A model generated the notes under the pieces. That model was not told the DNA's origin. It saw nothing but the letters and a program-made list of their open reading frames with translations, and made no database searches. The position numbers were made by a program, and so were the translations under genes. Positions 1 to 7,168 of a stretch of 10,048 nucleotides of DNA are shown here, one piece after another; position 1 is the stretch's first letter; each line of letters begins with the position of its first letter. The DNA lies in contig CAZGJX010000128.1 of the NCBI GenBank assembly GCA_964525635.1, positions 1-10,048 of the forward strand, given 5' to 3'. This DNA is from an uncultured archaeon (GTDB lineage Archaea > Asgardarchaeota > Lokiarchaeia > Sigyniarchaeales > SOKP01).

Positions 1-600
1 CAAATCACCCAAATTGAAAATTTGAATTTAAACAAAAATCTAATATCTCTTGATCTCTCTAATAATCTAATATCTTATATTTCAAATCTTTCTTCATTAG
101 TTAATTTAAAAATTTTGTGGATAAAATCAAACGATATATCATCTATCGAAAATATTGAAAATTTGGAAAATTTAAATTGGTTAAGTTTAGAAAACAATAA
201 AATTACCCAAATAACTAGTTTGGAAAATCAAAGAAAACTAAGTATACTTGATTTGAAGAATAATCAAATAAACCAACTTGATAATATAGGGACTCTACCT
301 AATTTACAGTTTTTATACCTTAATAATAACAAAATTAGAAAACTTTGTAATTTTGGTGATTTCCCAAATCTAAAAAATATCAATTTAAGTAATAATGAGA
401 TTACTGAAATACAAACTTTAGATTATTTACCCAATTTAGAATTTCTTGATCTAACAAATAATAAAATCTCTGAAATCAAAGGTTTAGGAAAGCTAACAAA
501 TCTTAAACGTGTATATCTCAGTGGTAATCCGCTACCCAAGGAGCAATCACGATGGTCAACACAAAAATTAATTCAATATTGTCAAGAAAATAATATTTAA
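1..600 (+). CDS. Leucine-rich repeat protein, SDS22/internalin-like 22-residue repeats (5' truncated by window edge)
   Basis: The frame is open from base 1 (CAA ATC ACC CAA ATT GAA AAT TTG = QITQIENL), so the TTG at 22 is internal. Repeats follow LxxLxLxxNxIxxIxxLxxLxx, e.g. LEFLDLTNNKISEIKGLGKLTN, and end in an LSGNP cap. Stop TAA at 598-600. Confidence 0.93.
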   Translation, partial: QITQIENLNLNKNLISLDLSNNLISYISNLSSLVNLKILWIKSNDISSIENIENLENLNWLSLENNKITQITSLENQRKLSILDLKNNQINQLDNIGTLPNLQFLYLNNNKIRKLCNFGDFPNLKNINLSNNEITEIQTLDYLPNLEFLDLTNNKISEIKGLGKLTNLKRVYLSGNPLPKEQSRWSTQKLIQYCQENNI

Positions 601-775
601 TTGAGTATTATTTTTAACATCTAGTGTAATTAAAAATGAATTGGGATGTTATAAATCAAAAATTAGTACCAAAGAATGGAATGTAATTAATTTTCTTATA
701 AATTCATATAAATTAAAAGTATATATAAATTCCTCCATAAAACTATATAAAAAAAAGAAAGGGCGTAATATAATA

Positions 776-2104
776 ATGATTATAAAAAATAATCATATCG
801 ACTCGTTTTGGATTAACTATTTTAATTATGACCTTCCAGATATATTTCTTGATTTAGAATTTTTACAATATTTAAGATTATCATCATCTTTTCATAAATT
901 TCCAGCATCCTTTTTTAAAATGAAACAACTTAAAACTTTAATATTAGACTTTAATGGTAGACCATCTAATTTTGATGATCTACAACAATTAGTAAATCTA
1001 AAGAAAATTAAATTTTACTGTTATGAATTTCCTTATTGGATAATTAAATTAAAAGAATTAGAATCAATAAAAATGACTTCATTTATAGAAATAAAGCTAC
1101 CTGAATTTATCAAAACATTAGAGAGTTTAAAAAGGATTCAGATTTGGTATTCTACTAGTGAGGAAAATTCTTTTGTTCCTTATACTTTTGATCCTATAAT
1201 TGGAAATTTAAATCAGTTAGAGAGTCTTTCTTTTGGTGCTGATTTATTAACTAAAACTATTTATGAAGATTCTCTTTTTAATTGTCGGAACTTAAAAGAA
1301 TTATCTTTTTATAGAATCAAATTATTTCATCATTCATTAGATAATTCAACTAAAGGAAAAATACCATTAAATATTTTTAAATTAAAACATCTGAGAAAAT
1401 TAATTTTCAATGGATGTGAAATTAGAGAAATTCCTAAAGAGATCCTTCAATTAAAGAAGTTAGAAGTTCTCAATCTTTATGCTAATAATCTTAAGGAAAT
1501 ACCTAATTTTCTTTTTCAATTATGTAACCTAGAAGAATTATATCTCACATATACTTTCTGTTCTACATTACCAGATTCACTTTGCTTAATCCCCCAATTA
1601 AAAATATTATATTTATCTAATAATCCCTTGTGGTATTTACCAAAAGACTTAGGGAAATTAAAAAAACTTGAAGAATTATACGTAGATAATAATAGGTTAG
1701 AGGATTTACCTGATTCAATTTGTGAAATAACTACTTTAAAAAAGATTGATACAACACATAATGAAATTAGATACTTACCAGAACATATTGGAAATCTAAA
1801 GAACTTAGAAATCTTAAGAATACCTTATAATAAAATAATAGATCTTCCAATATCAATAGGTAGATGTGCTAAACTTTGGAAACTTATATTATGGGGAAAT
1901 CCACTTGAAGAATTACCTAACTCATTATTGGAGTGTGAATCATTAAAGATTATTAAAATATCTCTTAACCAAATTCAAAATCTATCACAACATAGTCAAG
2001 AAATTTTGCAGCAATTAGAGAAAAGAAATCATGTAAGAATAATAACAAAAATAAATTATACACAAAGAAAGCATCCTTCTTTCTTATCAAATCCAAATGA
2101 TTAG
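776..2104 (+). CDS. Leucine-rich repeat protein with 23-residue LxxLxLxxNxLxxLPxxIxxL repeats (SHOC2/Roco-LRR-like)
   Basis: Clear repeats in the C-terminal half, e.g. LEELYVDNNRLEDLPDSICEITT, with degenerate repeats before them. The ORF track starts at TTG 641, but 641-775 looks like AT-rich intergenic DNA. The in-frame ATG at 776 lies ~30 nt after TATATAA (744-750) and is the preferred start; the start is uncertain. Confidence 0.88.
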   Translation: MIIKNNHIDSFWINYFNYDLPDIFLDLEFLQYLRLSSSFHKFPASFFKMKQLKTLILDFNGRPSNFDDLQQLVNLKKIKFYCYEFPYWIIKLKELESIKMTSFIEIKLPEFIKTLESLKRIQIWYSTSEENSFVPYTFDPIIGNLNQLESLSFGADLLTKTIYEDSLFNCRNLKELSFYRIKLFHHSLDNSTKGKIPLNIFKLKHLRKLIFNGCEIREIPKEILQLKKLEVLNLYANNLKEIPNFLFQLCNLEELYLTYTFCSTLPDSLCLIPQLKILYLSNNPLWYLPKDLGKLKKLEELYVDNNRLEDLPDSICEITTLKKIDTTHNEIRYLPEHIGNLKNLEILRIPYNKIIDLPISIGRCAKLWKLILWGNPLEELPNSLLECESLKIIKISLNQIQNLSQHSQEILQQLEKRNHVRIITKINYTQRKHPSFLSNPND

Positions 2105-3441: not shown

Positions 3442-4590
3442 ATGCTAAATATTCAAGATATTTTCAAGAAAAAAACAGAACTTCTCTGTAAAGGATTATA
3501 TCTAAATAGAAATAATTTAGAGGATTATAATAACCAAACCTTTTATTTAGATTATGGTAGAAAGGGAGGGGCAGGTCCATTAGGGGGAAGATATTTTTTA
3601 TTTGATGATGATAAGACTTTAGTCAACATTGCACTGAAAGATCTTCCTCACAGAACAGATTTAACTTTAAAATTTACTCAAGATCAATTCTATGAAATTT
3701 ATAACAAAGATAATAATAATCATTTCTGTAATCTTAAATTAATAAAATACCCCAATTATTATTCCTCCATTTATAAAACATCAGATGGAATTCCAATGAA
3801 AAAAATAGCTTTAATTCATGGTATTGATTGTCTTGCTACTACTATCTATCAAAAATGTAGTTATTGGGATTGTGGTAATGCATGTAAATTTTGTGGAATT
3901 CAACTAAGTTTAGCAAATAATGATACTATTGTTGAAAAATCAGCTAAACAAATATTAGAAGTAATTGATATAGCAAAAAAAGAAGGAAGATGTTCCCATA
4001 TTACATTAACAAGTGGTACTGATTCTAGCAAGGATAAAGGAGCTTTAAGATATATTAATATTATCAGACAATTAAAAGATAAACACCCTGAACTACCCAT
4101 ACATATTCAAATTGAACCTTTAGAAGACCTAACTTTTTTAAATAAAATAAAAGAAAGTGGTGCAGATACCATTGGGATACATATTGAAATACTAAATGAT
4201 AAATTAAGGAAAAAAATAACTCCTGGAAAGTATAAATTACCTTATAAATTATTTATTGAAAACTGGAAATATGCAGTTGATATTTTTGGGAATAATCAAG
4301 TTGAGACTTATATTTTAACTGGTTTTGGAGAATCAACTGATGAATTATTTCGTAAAATAGAAGAAATTATATCAATTGGAGTAATTCCATTTATTACCCC
4401 TGTGAGAGCAATACCAGGGAAATATGATATAGAATCACCTATAAATCCAATTGAGTTACTAAAAATATATAGAAGAACAGCTAAATTAATGAAAGAAAAT
4501 GGTATCAATCCATTAGAACATAAAGCAGGTTGCGTTAAGTGTGGAGGATGTTCAGCTATAAATGAAGCTTATAAAAGTGTAAATTCATAG
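3442..4590 (+). CDS. Radical SAM protein, MSMEG_0568 / Nit1C NitD family
   Basis: Family-like motifs: N-terminal GRKGGAGP, KIALIHGIDCLATTIYQKC, cluster motif CSYWDCGNACKFC, ADTIGIHIE, FGNNQVETYILTGFGE, and C-terminal Cys cluster KAGCVKCGGCS. Confidence 0.88.
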   Translation: MLNIQDIFKKKTELLCKGLYLNRNNLEDYNNQTFYLDYGRKGGAGPLGGRYFLFDDDKTLVNIALKDLPHRTDLTLKFTQDQFYEIYNKDNNNHFCNLKLIKYPNYYSSIYKTSDGIPMKKIALIHGIDCLATTIYQKCSYWDCGNACKFCGIQLSLANNDTIVEKSAKQILEVIDIAKKEGRCSHITLTSGTDSSKDKGALRYINIIRQLKDKHPELPIHIQIEPLEDLTFLNKIKESGADTIGIHIEILNDKLRKKITPGKYKLPYKLFIENWKYAVDIFGNNQVETYILTGFGESTDELFRKIEEIISIGVIPFITPVRAIPGKYDIESPINPIELLKIYRRTAKLMKENGINPLEHKAGCVKCGGCSAINEAYKSVNS

Positions 4591-4721
4591 TTGTCGTTTT
4601 TCTAGACAAATCTGGATACTATAAAATCTTCTCATATCTAAAGAGAACTCTCAATATGATATGATCTCCTCTTATTTTTTTAACTAATTTAAAAAATTTA
4701 TTTAGTCGTTCCTATTAAATC

Positions 4722-4737
4722 GAAAGAAGTTTAATAT
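4722..4737 (+). promoter_or_regulatory. BRE + TATA box for the putative structured RNA
   Basis: Purine-rich GAAAGAAG immediately followed by TTTAATAT (4730-4737). Archaeal spacing predicts a start near G4760/G4761, where the structured segment begins. Confidence 0.55.
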
Positions 4738-4759
4738 AGTTAAAATAAATTGTATTTTT

Positions 4760-4965
4760 GGAGGATGATATCAGAAACAGATATATTATTTAGCATTGGA
4801 ATAATATTCTCTGAGGATTTCCCTCAATTGTAGAATAGACTTCTCATGTCGAGAAGAAGGAATCTCTCATCGATTGTGTCTATATGGTACAATCGGGACT
4901 GTCAGTTACCAGTCAACAAAGAGGAGTTTATGGATGTCTACAAATGTCCAGATTTTTAGTAACTA
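4760..4965 (+). ncRNA. Unannotated structured RNA candidate (5' long hairpin plus four-way junction on a long helix); sRNA or cis-regulatory leader
   Basis: 4811-4950 is ~41% GC (57/140) versus ~14% in 4961-5110. Nested helices found by hand: TTGTAGA 4828-4834 / TCTACAA 4937-4943; ATAGACTTCTC 4835-4845 / GAGGAGTTTAT 4921-4931; hairpins 4851-4868, 4871-4895 (10 bp) and 4897-4914; 5' hairpin ATATTATT/AATAATAT plus TCAG/CTGA and GAGG/CCTC. Several G-U pairs work only on the + strand. Confidence 0.7.
4931..4957 (+). terminator. Possible hairpin plus oligo-T terminator at the 3' end of the structured RNA
   Basis: TGGATGT-CTACAA-ATGTCCA (7 bp, 2 G-U) followed by GA and TTTTT (4953-4957). Confidence 0.35.
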
Positions 4966-5114
4966 TATAATCTTTATTAACTTTATTTTGATATGTTTTA
5001 GCTTGCTATAACAATCAATTATTAAATTTCTTCAAAAAATTAATAATTATTTAAATCTTTAATTTAATTAGATAAGATTGTTAATTAATTCTCCAAATAA
5101 ATATTAAAGTAAAA

Positions 5115-6755
5115 ATGACTGAAATTAAAACCTCTAAGGATCAAAAGAAAAATGATAAAGAAAATGGAAAAGAAAATAGTTTTAAAAATCTTTCCAATAT
5201 AGAAATAAAAAGAATATATTATCCTGAAGCCATAGAAAATCTGGATTATTCAAAAGATTTAGGCGAACCTGGACAATATCCGTTTACAAGAGGGGCTTAT
5301 GATAATATGTATAGAGGAAGATTTTGGACTATGAGACAATTTGCAGGTTTTGGAACCGCTAAACAAACAAATGAAAGATTTAAATTTCTCATTGACCATG
5401 GACAAACAGGATTAAGTGTAGCATTTCATTTTCCAACATTATATGGATATGAGTCTACTGATGAGAAAGCTTTAGGTGAGATTGGAAAGTGTGGAGTTGC
5501 TATAGATACATTAAAGGATATGGAAACCTTATTTGATGGAATTGATTTATCTAAAATATCTACATCAATGACTATCAATGGTCCAGCATCAATATTATTA
5601 GCAATGTATATAGTTGTTGGAGAGAAACAAGGAATATCCCCAGAGAGATTAAGGGGAACAATTCAAAATGATATTCTAAAAGAATATATAGCGCAAAAAT
5701 CATGGATTTTTCCACCAGAACCATCTATGAGATTAATTGTTGATACAATTGAATATTGTACTAAAAATGTTCCCCAATGGTATACAATTAGTATTAGCGG
5801 ATATCATATCAGAGAAGCAGGATCAACTGCAATTCAAGAGTTAGCATTCACACTAGCGGACGGATTTGCTTATGTAGAAGCCGCATTGGAGAGAGGTTTG
5901 AATATTGATGATTTTGCTCATCGATTATCATTCTTTTTTAATTCTCATAATAATTTTTTTGAAGAAATTGCGAAATATAGAGCAGCTAGAAGAATATGGG
6001 CAAGAAAAATGAAAGATAAGTATGGTGCTAAAAAATTAGAATCAATGCGATTGAGATTTCATACACAAACGGCTGGAGTCTCATTGACTGCTCAAGAATC
6101 CGAAAATAATATTGTAAGAGTAACCCTTCAAGCATTAGCAGCTGTTTTGGGTGGAACACAATCTCTCCACACTAATTCATTCGATGAAGCTTTATGTTTA
6201 CCTACAGAAAAATCAGTTAGAATCGCTTTAAGAACGCAACAAATAATAGCAAATGAATCTGGAGTTTCAGATACTGTTGATCCCCTTGCTGGATCATATT
6301 ATATAGAGTGGTTAACAAATAAAATGGAAGAAGAAGCAGAAAACTATTTTCAAAAGATTGAAGATTTAGGTGGAGTTATTCCAGCTATTAAAAAGAATTT
6401 CTTTCAAAAAGAAATCGCTAAAGCTTCATATCAATATCAAAAAGAAATCGAAAATAAAGATAGAATAATTGTTGCTGTAAATGAATATCAACCAATTTCA
6501 TGTAGAAACCCAGAAATTTTAAAAATAGATGAAAAGGTCTCAGTTGATCAAATAAACAATCTCAATAAAGTTAAGGAAGAACGAAATAACGAGGCAGTTA
6601 AAATAGCTCTAAATAAACTTAGGGACGCAACAAGAGAGAAAGTAAATTTAATGCCTTATATAATAAGTGCTGTACGAGAATATGCTTCAATTGGAGAAAT
6701 TGTAAAAGAACTAAAAGAGATTTTTGGTATTTATATAGAAGATTCAATTTTTTAG
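5115..6755 (+). CDS. icmA: Adenosylcobalamin-dependent acyl-CoA mutase, large substrate-binding subunit (methylmalonyl-CoA mutase family; isobutyryl-CoA mutase IcmA-like)
   Basis: Family motifs PGQYPFTRG, WTMRQFAGFG, GTIQNDILKEY, ISISGYHIREAG, FEEIAKYRAARRIW, LGGTQSLHTNSFDE, DPLAGSYYIE. Specificity positions are Phe76 and Gln194 (ICM type), not Tyr/Arg (MCM type). Family assignment is near certain; substrate is inferred. Confidence 0.9.
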   Translation: MTEIKTSKDQKKNDKENGKENSFKNLSNIEIKRIYYPEAIENLDYSKDLGEPGQYPFTRGAYDNMYRGRFWTMRQFAGFGTAKQTNERFKFLIDHGQTGLSVAFHFPTLYGYESTDEKALGEIGKCGVAIDTLKDMETLFDGIDLSKISTSMTINGPASILLAMYIVVGEKQGISPERLRGTIQNDILKEYIAQKSWIFPPEPSMRLIVDTIEYCTKNVPQWYTISISGYHIREAGSTAIQELAFTLADGFAYVEAALERGLNIDDFAHRLSFFFNSHNNFFEEIAKYRAARRIWARKMKDKYGAKKLESMRLRFHTQTAGVSLTAQESENNIVRVTLQALAAVLGGTQSLHTNSFDEALCLPTEKSVRIALRTQQIIANESGVSDTVDPLAGSYYIEWLTNKMEEEAENYFQKIEDLGGVIPAIKKNFFQKEIAKASYQYQKEIENKDRIIVAVNEYQPISCRNPEILKIDEKVSVDQINNLNKVKEERNNEAVKIALNKLRDATREKVNLMPYIISAVREYASIGEIVKELKEIFGIYIEDSIF

Positions 6756-6766
6756 GGATATATAAA

Positions 6767-7168
6767 ATGTCTAAAGAAAAAAGAATAAAGGTAATTGTTG
6801 CAAAACCAGGATTAGATGGTCATGATAGAGGTGCTAAAGTTATTTCAAGAGGGCTCCGAGATGCTGGTATGGAAGTAATATACACAGGTATTCAGCAAAC
6901 TCCCGATGATATTCTTAATTCAATAATTCAAGAAGATCCTGATGCTGTTTTATTAAGTATTCTAAGTGGAGCTCATAATGCATTATGCTCTAAAATAATG
7001 GAAAAACTTGAGGAAAACAAAATAGACGACATCTTAATTGCAGTTGGAGGAATAATTCCTGAAGAAGATAAAGAATTTCTTCAAAAGAAGGGATTAAAAG
7101 GTTTTTATGGTCCAGGAACAGAAATTAAAACTATTGTTGAATTCGTAAAGAATAATCTAAAAAGATAA
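6767..7168 (+). CDS. icmB: Acyl-CoA mutase small cobalamin-binding subunit (IcmB / MCM C-terminal domain)
   Basis: B12-binding motifs AKPGLDGHDRG (DxHxxG), LSILSGAH and GGIIP. Starts 11 nt after the large subunit, consistent with an operon. Confidence 0.92.
   Translation: MSKEKRIKVIVAKPGLDGHDRGAKVISRGLRDAGMEVIYTGIQQTPDDILNSIIQEDPDAVLLSILSGAHNALCSKIMEKLEENKIDDILIAVGGIIPEEDKEFLQKKGLKGFYGPGTEIKTIVEFVKNNLKR

What the first reader, a model, noticed from the sequence alone, without database searches (positions are those of the whole stretch)
4760..4965. Unrecognised ~200-nt structured RNA with a four-way junction and its own TATA box, upstream of a B12 mutase operon
Seen in sequence: a GC island (~41% vs ~14% downstream) in a 524-nt intergenic gap that folds almost completely. 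Domain 1 (4761-4825) is a long irregular hairpin. In domain 2, contiguous 4828-4845 pairs with 4921-4931 and 4937-4943, giving an 18-bp helix with a GGATG bulge. It encloses three hairpins: GAGA(A)GA/TCTCTC, CGATTGTGTC/GGTACAATCG and GACTG/CAGTC. Four G-U pairs in the main helices favour a + strand RNA over DNA palindromes. A BRE/TATA lies at the right distance from the 5' end, and an oligo-T lies at the 3' end. Established knowledge: it lacks the hallmark motifs of tRNA, 5S, SRP, RNase P and canonical cobalamin riboswitches as I know them. Inference: a novel archaeal ncRNA or regulatory leader.
Basis: partly seen in the sequence, partly recalled or inferred. Interest (0 to 1): 0.85.

Follow-up and report, generated by a model that had tools for sequence, protein, structure and literature searches.

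The report
Gene-less mini-transposon carrying TnpB guide RNA
The folded, GC-rich island upstream of the B12 mutase genes does not regulate them: it is the guide-RNA part of a roughly 390-bp protein-less jumping element (IS607/TnpB family) inserted at the end of the neighbouring radical-SAM gene in an Asgard archaeon, a kind of element already described and already found elsewhere in this genome.

Summary
The GC island and its fold are real: 38-42% GC against 15% downstream, and domain 2 has z = -3.6. The stretch is not unique and is not tied to the mutase.

- **Mobile element.** Window ~4576-4966 is a gene-less derivative of an IS607-family element (serine-recombinase tnpA plus a 733-798-aa tnpB-like gene). 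Full copies lie on two other contigs.
- **Shared ends.** It has their left end (4576-4625) and right end, with recombinase-type repeats in inverted orientation.
- **Empty site.** Three same-genus genomes have the radical-SAM and mutase genes 156-159 bp apart (524 bp here). The insertion replaced the last codons of the radical-SAM gene.
- **RNA family.** A covariance model finds 12 copies in this genome, at least 40 in a congener, and hits in 15 of 41 family genomes. About a quarter of the 42 aligned copies sit directly 3' of tnpB.
- **Structure.** Covariation supports hairpins Pa-Pd and a pseudoknot between the Pd loop (4903-4909) and the scaffold's 3' end (4959-4965), the hallmark of TnpB omega RNAs.
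The 18-bp helix and four-way junction are specific to this copy.

Expression could not be tested. This scan has already reported the same kind of element on other contigs of this genome.

Verdict: new member of a known kind.

The parts
4576..4966 (+). Whole gene-less IS607-type element (~390 bp; boundaries good to about 2 nt)
   Evidence: Left and right ends are shared with the full-length element on contig C51 (72% identity over 113 and 99 nt). Similarity between copies stops at these points. The segment is missing between the same two genes in three same-genus genomes.
4576..4625 (+). Left end (LE): AGTGTAAATTCATAG... with two 8-bp sites, TCTAGACA (4601-4608) and TCTGGATA (4611-4618), 10 bp apart. 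It supplies the last codons and the stop (SVNS*) of the radical-SAM ORF.
   Evidence: Near-identical to the sequence upstream of tnpA on C51 (90% over 50 nt). The same LE motif occurs at 13 sites in the genome. The radical-SAM protein of relatives ends ...INEAYKALE/KAV/KAI, here ...INEAYK-SVNS.
4626..4791 (+).
   Evidence: The alignment of eight gene-less copies shows only scattered conserved positions here. There is no similarity to the C51 element. A 22-codon ORF (about 4766-4834) is not conserved in the other copies.
4792..4966 (+). Omega-RNA (reRNA)-like scaffold
   Evidence: Covariance model R1 scores 188.9 bits here and finds the same module directly 3' of tnpB-like ORFs and in many ORF-less copies.
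4797..4800 (+). 5' strand of the tentative closing helix H1 (TGGA), pairing with TCCA at 4947-4950
   Evidence: RNAalifold consensus; 88% paired in A2 but nearly invariant. In tnpB-linked copies this is the Leu-Asp codon pair of the RuvC-III motif, so the conservation may reflect coding.
4813..4825 (+). Hairpin Pa (GAGG / CCTC)
   Evidence: 97% paired in A2. Present only in ORF-less copies.
4840..4856 (+). Hairpin Pb (CTTCTC / GAGAAG).
   Evidence: Compensatory changes occur at all 6 pairs, for example UA:13 against CG:11 at one pair. C118 has TTTCCT/AGGAAA and C75 has TCCCG/CGGGA.
4870..4896 (+).
   Evidence: All 11 pairs show compensatory changes, with up to 6 pair types per position.
4897..4914 (+). 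Hairpin Pd (GACTG / CAGTC), the 'nexus' stem-loop; its loop is TCAGTTAC
   Evidence: 95% paired; 4 of 5 pairs have compensatory changes.
4903..4909 (+). Pseudoknot 5' strand (CAGTTAC, the Pd loop), pairing with 4959-4965
   Evidence: 87% paired against 18-52% for slid controls and 76% for shuffles (0 of 500 as high). AU/CG counts are 15/11 at one pair and AU/GC 17/9 at another. The model used for the alignment contains no pseudoknot, so the alignment was not fitted to it.
4934..4952 (+). Right-end sites ATGTCTACA and ATGTCCAGA, 10 bp apart, inverted relative to the two LE sites; presumed TnpA-binding sites
   Evidence: TGTCCAGATTT is the reverse complement of the LE's AAATCTGGACA. The motif with its flanks occurs at 13 RE-type sites in the genome. 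The binding function is inferred.
4959..4966 (+). Pseudoknot 3' strand (GTAACTA) and the right-end terminus. The family consensus is GTAACTGT; this copy has G to A at 4965.
   Evidence: The substitution turns the terminal C-G of the pseudoknot into C-A and makes the RE dinucleotide (AT) differ from the LE's (GT).
4967..4986 (+). Presumed guide segment (flanking DNA read into the omega RNA)
   Evidence: Inferred from the known architecture of TnpB omega RNAs (PMC10711439, PMC10055086). Conservation among copies stops here. No other site in the genome matches it with 1 mismatch or fewer.
3442..4590 (+). Radical-SAM gene whose 3' end received the insertion
   Evidence: Pfam Radical_SAM. Orthologues in three congeners are 55-63% identical and have a different C-terminal tail.
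5034..5071 (+). Upstream block of the mutase gene, conserved in the genus and lying outside the element (probably its own promoter region)
   Evidence: AAAAAATTAATAAT...TTTAATTTAATTAG aligns in all four genomes.

Best explanation
Window ~4576-4966 is a non-autonomous, protein-less derivative of an IS607-family insertion sequence, comparable to a MITE or PATE. It keeps the two ends that the serine-recombinase TnpA needs and the omega-RNA (reRNA) scaffold that the element's TnpB-type nuclease uses as its guide RNA.

Shown. The element inserted in this lineage at the 3' end of the radical-SAM gene. It belongs to a dispersed family. Its RNA module is the one found next to tnpB genes. The module's helices and pseudoknot are maintained by compensatory changes.

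Inferred. The + strand is transcribed, possibly by read-through from the radical-SAM gene, which runs in the same direction. The RNA ends in a guide copied from the flanking DNA (about 4967-4986). It is used in trans by the cognate 798-aa TnpB-like protein on contig C51, which shares the same nexus loop, pseudoknot and end. After TnpA excises the element, the TnpB-RNA complex would cut the emptied site, and repair from a sister copy would restore the element. This is the homing model shown for IS605 and IS607 elements.

The element has no demonstrated role in controlling the mutase genes.
For: 1. Not unique. blastn and nhmmer find partial and full paralogues on at least 9 contigs.
2. Parents. 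On C22 and C51 the 3' module lies directly after large tnpB-like ORFs (Pfam Cas12f1-like_TNB; weak OrfB_IS605; NCBIfam guided_TnpB region; PDB hits to TnpB and Cas12f RuvC/TNB). These ORFs are preceded by genes that pass the NCBIfam IS607-transposase cut-off, 168.7 and 162.7 bits against 110.
3. Ends. Window 4576-4620 matches the LE upstream of tnpA on C51, and the LE and RE carry inverted 11-nt motifs.
4. Empty site. The gap is 156-159 bp in G001, G002 and G003 against 524 bp here, with a changed radical-SAM C-terminus.
5. Spread. Model R1 hits 15 of 41 family genomes, with at least 40 copies in G002 and 12 here. About 10 of the 42 aligned copies are tnpB-linked and the rest are ORF-less in varied contexts.
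6. RNA structure. 89% of cells pair against 39-55% for slid controls, 35 of 36 pairs show compensatory change, and the pseudoknot pairs at 87% against 18-52%.
7. Literature. PATE-like elements and stand-alone omega RNAs that act in trans are described (PMC10055086, PMC10691335). For IS607, matching-dinucleotide insertion, a fixed right-flanking nucleotide and an essential pseudoknot are described (PMC10711439).
Against:
- This copy has a G-to-A change at 4965. It removes the terminal pseudoknot pair and makes the RE dinucleotide differ from the LE's. In ISXfa1 a single pseudoknot mismatch cut activity more than 10^4-fold (PMC10711439), so this copy may be impaired for guiding, for moving, or for both.
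- The interior, including hairpins Pa and Pb, is not present in the C51 parent, so the element is not a simple deletion derivative.
- The tnpB-like proteins score below the curated NCBIfam TnpB cut-offs. Their nuclease activity is assumed.
- The main covariation counts come from an alignment fitted to the model's structure. The copies also fall into a few subfamilies, so the number of independent events is smaller than the cell counts suggest.
Confidence: 0.86

Rival explanations
1. The same element, but an inert relic: it can no longer move and its RNA, if made at all, is not used. Its structure only reflects a recent origin from an active copy.
For: G-to-A at 4965 weakens the pseudoknot and makes the end dinucleotides unequal. 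The interior is poorly conserved. No expression data exist. The guide has no second target in the genome.
Against: All five helices are intact in this copy, and 6 of 7 pseudoknot pairs remain. A tnpB-linked copy in G001 (L061) carries the same GTAACTATA terminus, so the variant may be tolerated. Across the family the fold is kept by compensatory changes, which argues for selection on the RNA at least until recently.
Confidence: 0.3
2. A novel cis-acting leader, riboswitch or attenuator that controls the downstream acyl-CoA mutase genes.
For: It lies upstream of the mutase on the same strand and folds well as a single sequence, with alternative pairings (Pb against the long helix).
Against: It is absent from the same intergenic region in three congeners that keep the gene pair and the mutase's conserved upstream block. 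Homologous copies lie next to unrelated genes. The module is the 3' flank of tnpB genes. No riboswitch family matches. About 148 nt of AT-rich spacer, including the conserved mutase upstream block, separate it from the start codon.
Confidence: 0.02
3. A purely DNA-level feature: the palindromes are recombinase or other protein-binding sites of the transposon, and no functional RNA is involved.
For: The LE and RE carry paired 8-bp sites in inverted orientation that are best read as TnpA sites.
Against: IS607 transposases act on double-stranded DNA and do not need hairpins (10.1101/2023.11.20.567912). Helices Pb, Pc and Pd vary in sequence while keeping their pairing, with frequent G-U pairs that only work on the + strand RNA. 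The loop-to-tail pseudoknot covaries.
Confidence: 0.05
4. A domesticated stand-alone guide RNA that directs a TnpB-like protein to a host target for regulation, as in the TldR-type repressors.
For: Stand-alone omega RNAs are numerous in these genomes. RNA-guided repressors derived from TnpB are known (PMC10705468, title and abstract only).
Against: The presumed guide matches only its own flank. The element has intact transposon ends and is a lineage-specific insertion. Both tnpB-like genes sit inside transposons with tnpA.
Confidence: 0.03

Closest known systems
Stand-alone omega RNAs and PATE-like gene-less IS elements of OMEGA systems (G. stearothermophilus ISGst-related PATEs, PMC10055086; stand-alone omega RNAs summarised in PMC10691335)
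   Same: Both are protein-less, keep both transposon ends and an omega-RNA scaffold next to the right end, occur in several dispersed copies in genomes that also hold effector-encoding parents, and have a guide supplied by the flanking DNA.
   Different: Those examples are IS200/IS605 elements (Y1 transposase, hairpin ends, bacterial). This one has IS607-type ends (serine recombinase, double-stranded substrates, paired 8-bp sites), lives in an Asgard archaeon, has parents with 733-798-aa TnpB-like proteins, and carries an extra Pa-Pb hairpin module that the parents lack.
ISXfa1 (Xylella fastidiosa) IS607 TnpB reRNA (PMC10711439)
   Same: Both have an RNA of about 150 nt or more at the right end with several stem-loops, a pseudoknot between an apical loop and the scaffold's 3' end, insertion at matching dinucleotides, and an invariant nucleotide after the right end. 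Here the consensus is ...CTGT or ...CGGT followed by variable sequence.
   Different: No sequence similarity was tested or claimed. This scaffold has an additional possible closing helix, and in gene-less copies the Pa-Pb module. Activity is untested.
IS607-family elements and IStrons of Clostridium (10.1101/2023.11.20.567912)
   Same: Both have a tnpA(Ser)-tnpB-omega RNA organisation in the parents. The proposed role of TnpB is to cut the scarless donor joint so that the element is retained.
   Different: There is no group I intron here (no Rfam hit). That paper states that IS607 elements lack inverted repeats, whereas this family has an 11-nt subterminal inverted repeat.
Cobalamin riboswitch and other Rfam cis-regulators
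   Same: Only the position upstream of B12-dependent mutase genes.
   Different: No match at gathering or permissive thresholds. The stretch is absent from the orthologous site in congeners.

Membership tests
IS607-family transposon, non-autonomous derivative | Ends shared with an element that encodes a serine-recombinase (MerR-HTH plus resolvase) TnpA | tested here: met
   The LE and RE match the C51 element. The C51 and C22 TnpA proteins pass the NCBIfam transpos_IS607 cut-off and have Pfam Resolvase plus MerR domains.
IS607-family transposon, non-autonomous derivative | Evidence of mobility: several dispersed copies and an insertion polymorphism (empty site) | tested here: met
   There are 13 LE-type and 13 RE-type sites in the genome and four short LE-RE pairs. 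Copies occur in 15 of 41 family genomes. The site is empty in three congeners.
IS607-family transposon, non-autonomous derivative | Insertion by recombination at matching dinucleotides, with no target-site duplication | tested here: inconclusive
   The family consensus fits: LE A-GT-GTAA with RE ..CT-GT, or LE A-GG-GTAA with RE ..AC-GG-T. No duplication is seen. In the window the RE has AT where the LE has GT, and the pre-insertion sequence cannot be reconstructed to the base because the congeners are too divergent.
IS607-family transposon, non-autonomous derivative | Encodes its own transposase | tested here: not met
   No ORF of 60 aa or more lies in 4591-5114, and blastx finds no tnpA remnant. 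The element is therefore filed as a non-autonomous derivative, not as an IS.
TnpB omega RNA / reRNA | Lies at the transposon right end, at or overlapping the 3' end of tnpB in autonomous copies | tested here: met
   About 10 of the 42 model hits abut a tnpB-like ORF. On C51 the ORF reads into the scaffold.
TnpB omega RNA / reRNA | Conserved multi-stem secondary structure supported by covariation | tested here: met
   (89% paired; 35 of 36 pairs with compensatory change). Caveat: A2 was aligned to the model.
TnpB omega RNA / reRNA | Pseudoknot between a stem-loop's apical loop and the scaffold's 3' end, just before the guide | tested here: met
   The Pd loop (4903-4909) pairs with 4959-4965: 87% paired, slid controls 18-52%, two pairs with frequent compensatory change. 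The window copy itself has 6 of 7 pairs.
TnpB omega RNA / reRNA | The guide is the flanking DNA beyond the right end, so conservation stops at the end | tested here: met
   Alignments lose all similarity after ...GTAACTGT or ...GCAACGGT.
TnpB omega RNA / reRNA | Transcribed, bound by TnpB, and able to direct TAM-dependent DNA cleavage | not testable with these tools
No biochemical assay is available.
Known Rfam families (cobalamin riboswitch, SRP, RNase P, snoRNA, group I intron and others) | Score at or above the family's gathering threshold | tested here: not met
   There are no matches at gathering thresholds. The best permissive hits have E of 0.46 or higher, far below the cut-offs. No tRNA or tmRNA was found.
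Cis-regulatory leader of the acyl-CoA mutase operon | Conserved association with the regulated gene in related genomes | tested here: not met
   Three congeners have the mutase with its conserved upstream block but no element.

The most novel reading that the evidence does not exclude
The Pa-Pb hairpin pair (4813-4856) may be an undescribed RNA module specific to gene-less elements. It is missing from the tnpB-linked parents, where the tnpB coding tail occupies its place. It is joined to at least four different omega-RNA 3' halves or element ends in several genera of this Asgard family, and Pb is kept by compensatory changes. If so, stand-alone guide-RNA elements in these archaea are not mere deletion products. 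They would carry a dedicated, exchangeable 5' module, for example for expression, processing or stability, or for contact with the enlarged N-terminal half of the 730-800-aa TnpB-like proteins.
Probability: 0.2. Interest if true: 0.5.

Novelty: new member of a known kind. Interest (0 to 1): 0.25.

Why it matters
- **It removes a false lead.** The stretch is neither a B12/mutase riboregulator nor a new class of archaeal ncRNA. It is a transposon part that landed there by chance in this lineage.
- **It adds a well-documented archaeal IS607 example.** Stand-alone TnpB guide RNAs were described mainly for bacterial IS605 elements. This one has an exact empty site, parents in the same genome, and comparative support for the scaffold and pseudoknot.
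- **It helps define the guide RNA of unusually large Asgard TnpB-like nucleases.** That is of interest for the evolution of Cas12 and Fanzor and as a possible tool.
- **It has a side effect on the host.** The insertion rewrote the last codons of a radical-SAM gene without destroying it.

Tried and rejected
- **Rfam and tRNA.** Rfam at gathering and permissive thresholds, and ARAGORN, found nothing usable. The weak SNORD28 hit (E = 2.7) and a C/D-box reading were dropped: no proper C box is present and the region is not conserved between copies.
- **Group I intron (IStron).** Considered because IS607 IStrons exist. No Rfam intron hit.
- **Expression.** Expression remains untested.
- **A second target for the presumed guide.** Only the element's own flank matches with 1 mismatch or fewer. 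Sites with 2-3 mismatches are what an AT-rich genome gives by chance.
- **Remnants of tnpA or tnpB coding sequence inside the element.** blastx found only the RE-proximal ~125 nt, which match the C51 TnpB tail (E = 1e-4). That match reflects DNA homology of the scaffold. There is no tnpA remnant.
Rejected. In this copy a 7-bp outer part (4828-34/4937-43) can coexist with the family structure at -39.2 kcal/mol, against an MFE of -45.9.
- **Interior of the multi-copy A-type element.** It is not assembled. The copies end at contig edges, and tblastn finds only the C22 and C51 tnpB genes.
- **Pa as a decayed NAARNI coding tail.** The similarity is too weak to claim.

Full report
**1. The observation**

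The gap between a radical-SAM ORF (3442-4590) and a methylmalonyl-CoA-mutase-family ORF (5115-6755, followed by a B12-binding subunit at 6767-7168) is 524 nt. GC rises to 0.38-0.42 in 4800-4949 and falls to 0.15 just downstream. The genome as a whole has 26.8% GC.

The whole stretch is not exceptional (z = -1.85). Domain 2 alone is (z = -3.59, 0 of 200 shuffles). The minus strand folds less well. Rfam, at curated and permissive thresholds, and ARAGORN find nothing.

**2. The stretch is not unique**

Searching the window's own genome (4.45 Mb, 245 contigs) gave near-full-length paralogues on C118 and C75. Copies of the 3' half lie on C93, C51, C22, C88 and C31, and copies of the 5' half on C106 and C22.

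On C22 and C51 the 3' half lies directly after large ORFs (733 and 798 aa). Their C-termini match the TnpB/Cas12f RuvC-TNB region (Pfam PF07282, weak PF01385; NCBIfam guided_TnpB; PDB TnpB and Cas12f chains). Each is preceded by a MerR-HTH plus resolvase gene that passes NCBIfam's IS607-transposase cut-off. These are IS607-family elements of about 3.1 kb.

**3. The window holds both ends of such an element**

The sequence upstream of tnpA on C51 (AGTGTAAATTCATAGTTGTCATTTTTCTATACAAATCTGGACAC) is almost identical to window 4576-4620 (90% over 50 nt). Its AAATCTGGAYA is the reverse complement of the TGTCCAGATTT at window 4945-4955.

A motif census finds 13 right-end-type and 13 left-end-type sites in the genome, many of them at contig ends. 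It also finds four short LE-RE pairs without ORFs, on C128, C118, C75 and C93.

Each end carries two 8-bp sites 10 bp apart: LE TCTAGACA/TCTGGATA, and RE TGTCTACA/TGTCCAGA in the opposite orientation. I read these as recombinase-binding sites, which is an inference. Against the C51 element, the window element matches over its first 113 nt and last 99 nt (72% each) and not in between.

**4. Empty sites**

In all three same-genus genomes the orthologous radical-SAM and mutase genes are adjacent, with 156-159 bp between them. Their radical-SAM proteins end ...INEAYKALE...KAV or ...KAI. Here the protein ends ...INEAYK followed by SVNS and a stop, all encoded by the left end.

The AT-rich block directly upstream of the mutase gene (5034-5071) is conserved in all four genomes and lies outside the element. 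So about 390 bp (4576-4966) were inserted in this lineage. The mutase kept its own upstream region.

**5. The RNA module**

A MAFFT alignment of seven copies from three genomes gave an RNAalifold consensus of local hairpins plus a short closing helix. A covariance model built from it (R1) found:
- 12 hits in this genome;
- at least 40 in congener G002;
- hits in 15 of 41 genomes of the family, spread over 7 of 13 genera.

On the 42 hits held as loci (A2), 89% of cells pair, against 70% for shuffles and 39-55% for slid partners. Compensatory changes occur at 35 of 36 pairs. A2 is fitted to the model, which favours the structure. The unfitted seven-sequence alignment already showed 13 compensatory pairs.

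The family structure in window coordinates:

| Element | Positions |
|---|---|
| H1 (tentative closing helix) | 4797-4800 / 4947-4950 |
| Pa | 4813-4816 / 4822-4825 |
| Pb | 4840-4845 / 4851-4856 |
| Pc | 4870-4880 / 4886-4896 |
| Pd | 4897-4901 / 4910-4914 |

Its 5' strand belongs to Pb, and part of its 3' strand is a right-end site.

**6. The pseudoknot**

The Pd loop (CAGTTAC, 4903-4909) is complementary to the last bases of the element (GTAACTG in the consensus, 4959-4965). In the other subfamily the pair is CCGTTGT/ACAACGG, and a third combination (CCGTTAC/GTAACGG) also occurs.

The model has no pseudoknot, so the alignment was not fitted to it. Even so, 87% of cells pair, against 18-52% when slid and 76% in shuffles (0 of 500 as high). 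Two positions switch AU to CG or GC in 9-11 sequences.

A loop-to-3'-end pseudoknot just before the guide is the signature of TnpB omega RNAs and is essential in the IS607 element ISXfa1 (PMC10711439). The same paper describes matching-dinucleotide insertion and a fixed right-flanking nucleotide. That fits the invariant ...CTGT and ...CGGT termini here. Similarity among copies ends exactly there, as expected if the next bases form the guide.

**7. Which copies have a nuclease gene**

About 10 of the 42 aligned hits abut a tnpB-like ORF. The rest have no ORF and lie between unrelated genes. Gene-less, omega-RNA-bearing elements that must use a TnpB made elsewhere are described for bacterial IS605 families ('PATE' elements, PMC10055086) and as 'standalone omega RNAs' (PMC10691335).

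The likely partner here is the C51 element. It shares the LE, the Pd loop, the pseudoknot and the terminus. The closest relatives of its TnpB-like protein in named genomes are Promethearchaeota (Asgard) MAGs.

**8. State of this copy**

All helices are intact. Position 4965 is A where the family has G. This loses the terminal pseudoknot pair and makes the right-end dinucleotide (AT) differ from the left-end one (GT). One tnpB-linked copy in G001 has the same variant. The presumed guide (4967-4986) matches nothing else in the genome at 1 mismatch or fewer, which is the ordinary transposon configuration.

The element points the same way as the radical-SAM gene, so read-through could supply transcription. 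Expression could not be examined.

**9. What remains unexplained**

Hairpins Pa and Pb are absent from the tnpB-linked parents, where the coding tail of tnpB occupies that place. In G002 the homology between gene-less copies and their parent begins right after the tnpB stop codon. Yet the same Pa-Pb module is joined to several different 3' halves and ends:
- both right-end subtypes;
- a G002 subtype;
- a ~430-bp repeat family of another genus, with different termini;
- two further repeat families in this genome.

Its role is open.

**10. Verdict**

The finding is a real, structured and probably RNA-level feature. It is the guide-RNA cassette of a gene-less IS607-type element, not a regulator of the B12 mutase genes and not a new RNA class.

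Earlier notes of this scan reported the same kind of element, and the large TnpBs, on other contigs of this genome. I re-derived the parts I rely on. I looked for the pseudoknot, and found the ISXfa1 paper, after reading one of those notes.

Noticed in passing
window 4573-4590: The insertion replaced the last 2-3 codons of the radical-SAM gene. The left end of the element now supplies Ser-Val-Asn-Ser and the stop codon (TCATAG is conserved in all left ends), so the gene stays open with an altered tail.
   Followed up: yes
window 4813-4856; also G000 C106:3322-3422, C22:16187-16290, C1:52655-52761, C32:16278-16381, C29:8022-8125: The Pa-Pb hairpin module occurs in several gene-less repeat families with different 3' parts but not in the tnpB-linked parent elements. 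Pb covaries. Its function is unknown.
   Followed up: partly
L064:1230-1790, L075, L039, L024 (G027); L038 (G033); L036 (G020): A ~430-bp repeat family in another genus has sharp ends (TATAGTTAGCAAAAATAATA ... TTTTAATAGTCT) and the Pa-Pb module in its middle. It lies next to unrelated genes (LSM, MFS transporter, epimerases), and one copy sits between a truncated and a full epimerase gene.
   Followed up: partly
G000 C22:18110-20311 and C51:16234-18630: Two IS607-linked TnpB-like proteins of 733 and 798 aa, about twice the usual size and only 30% identical to each other. Only their last ~250 aa match known TnpB/Cas12f profiles.
   Followed up: partly
G000 contig ends (C19 both ends, C31, C75, C88, C126, C169; C98, C114, C118, C122, C160, C233, C244): A multi-copy element of the 'GCAACGGT' subtype breaks the assembly at 15 or more contig ends (seven right-end and eight left-end sites). 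Its interior is not in the assembly, so the true copy number of full elements is underestimated.
   Followed up: partly
window 5034-5071: An AT-rich block upstream of the mutase gene (AAAAAATTAATAAT..TTTAATTTAATTAG) is conserved in all four genomes of the genus. It is probably the mutase promoter region.
   Followed up: no
window 4766-4834: A GGAGG followed by ATG opens a 22-codon ORF that runs into Pa. It is not conserved in the other copies and is probably fortuitous.
   Followed up: partly
window 1-2104: Two leucine-rich-repeat proteins (Pfam LRR_4, LRR_8, LRR_14) lie at the left of the window.
   Followed up: no
L069 (G002:C122) 263-1361: In G002 a gene-less copy lies directly upstream of another tnpA-like gene on the same strand, so these elements are nested or tandem.
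   Followed up: no
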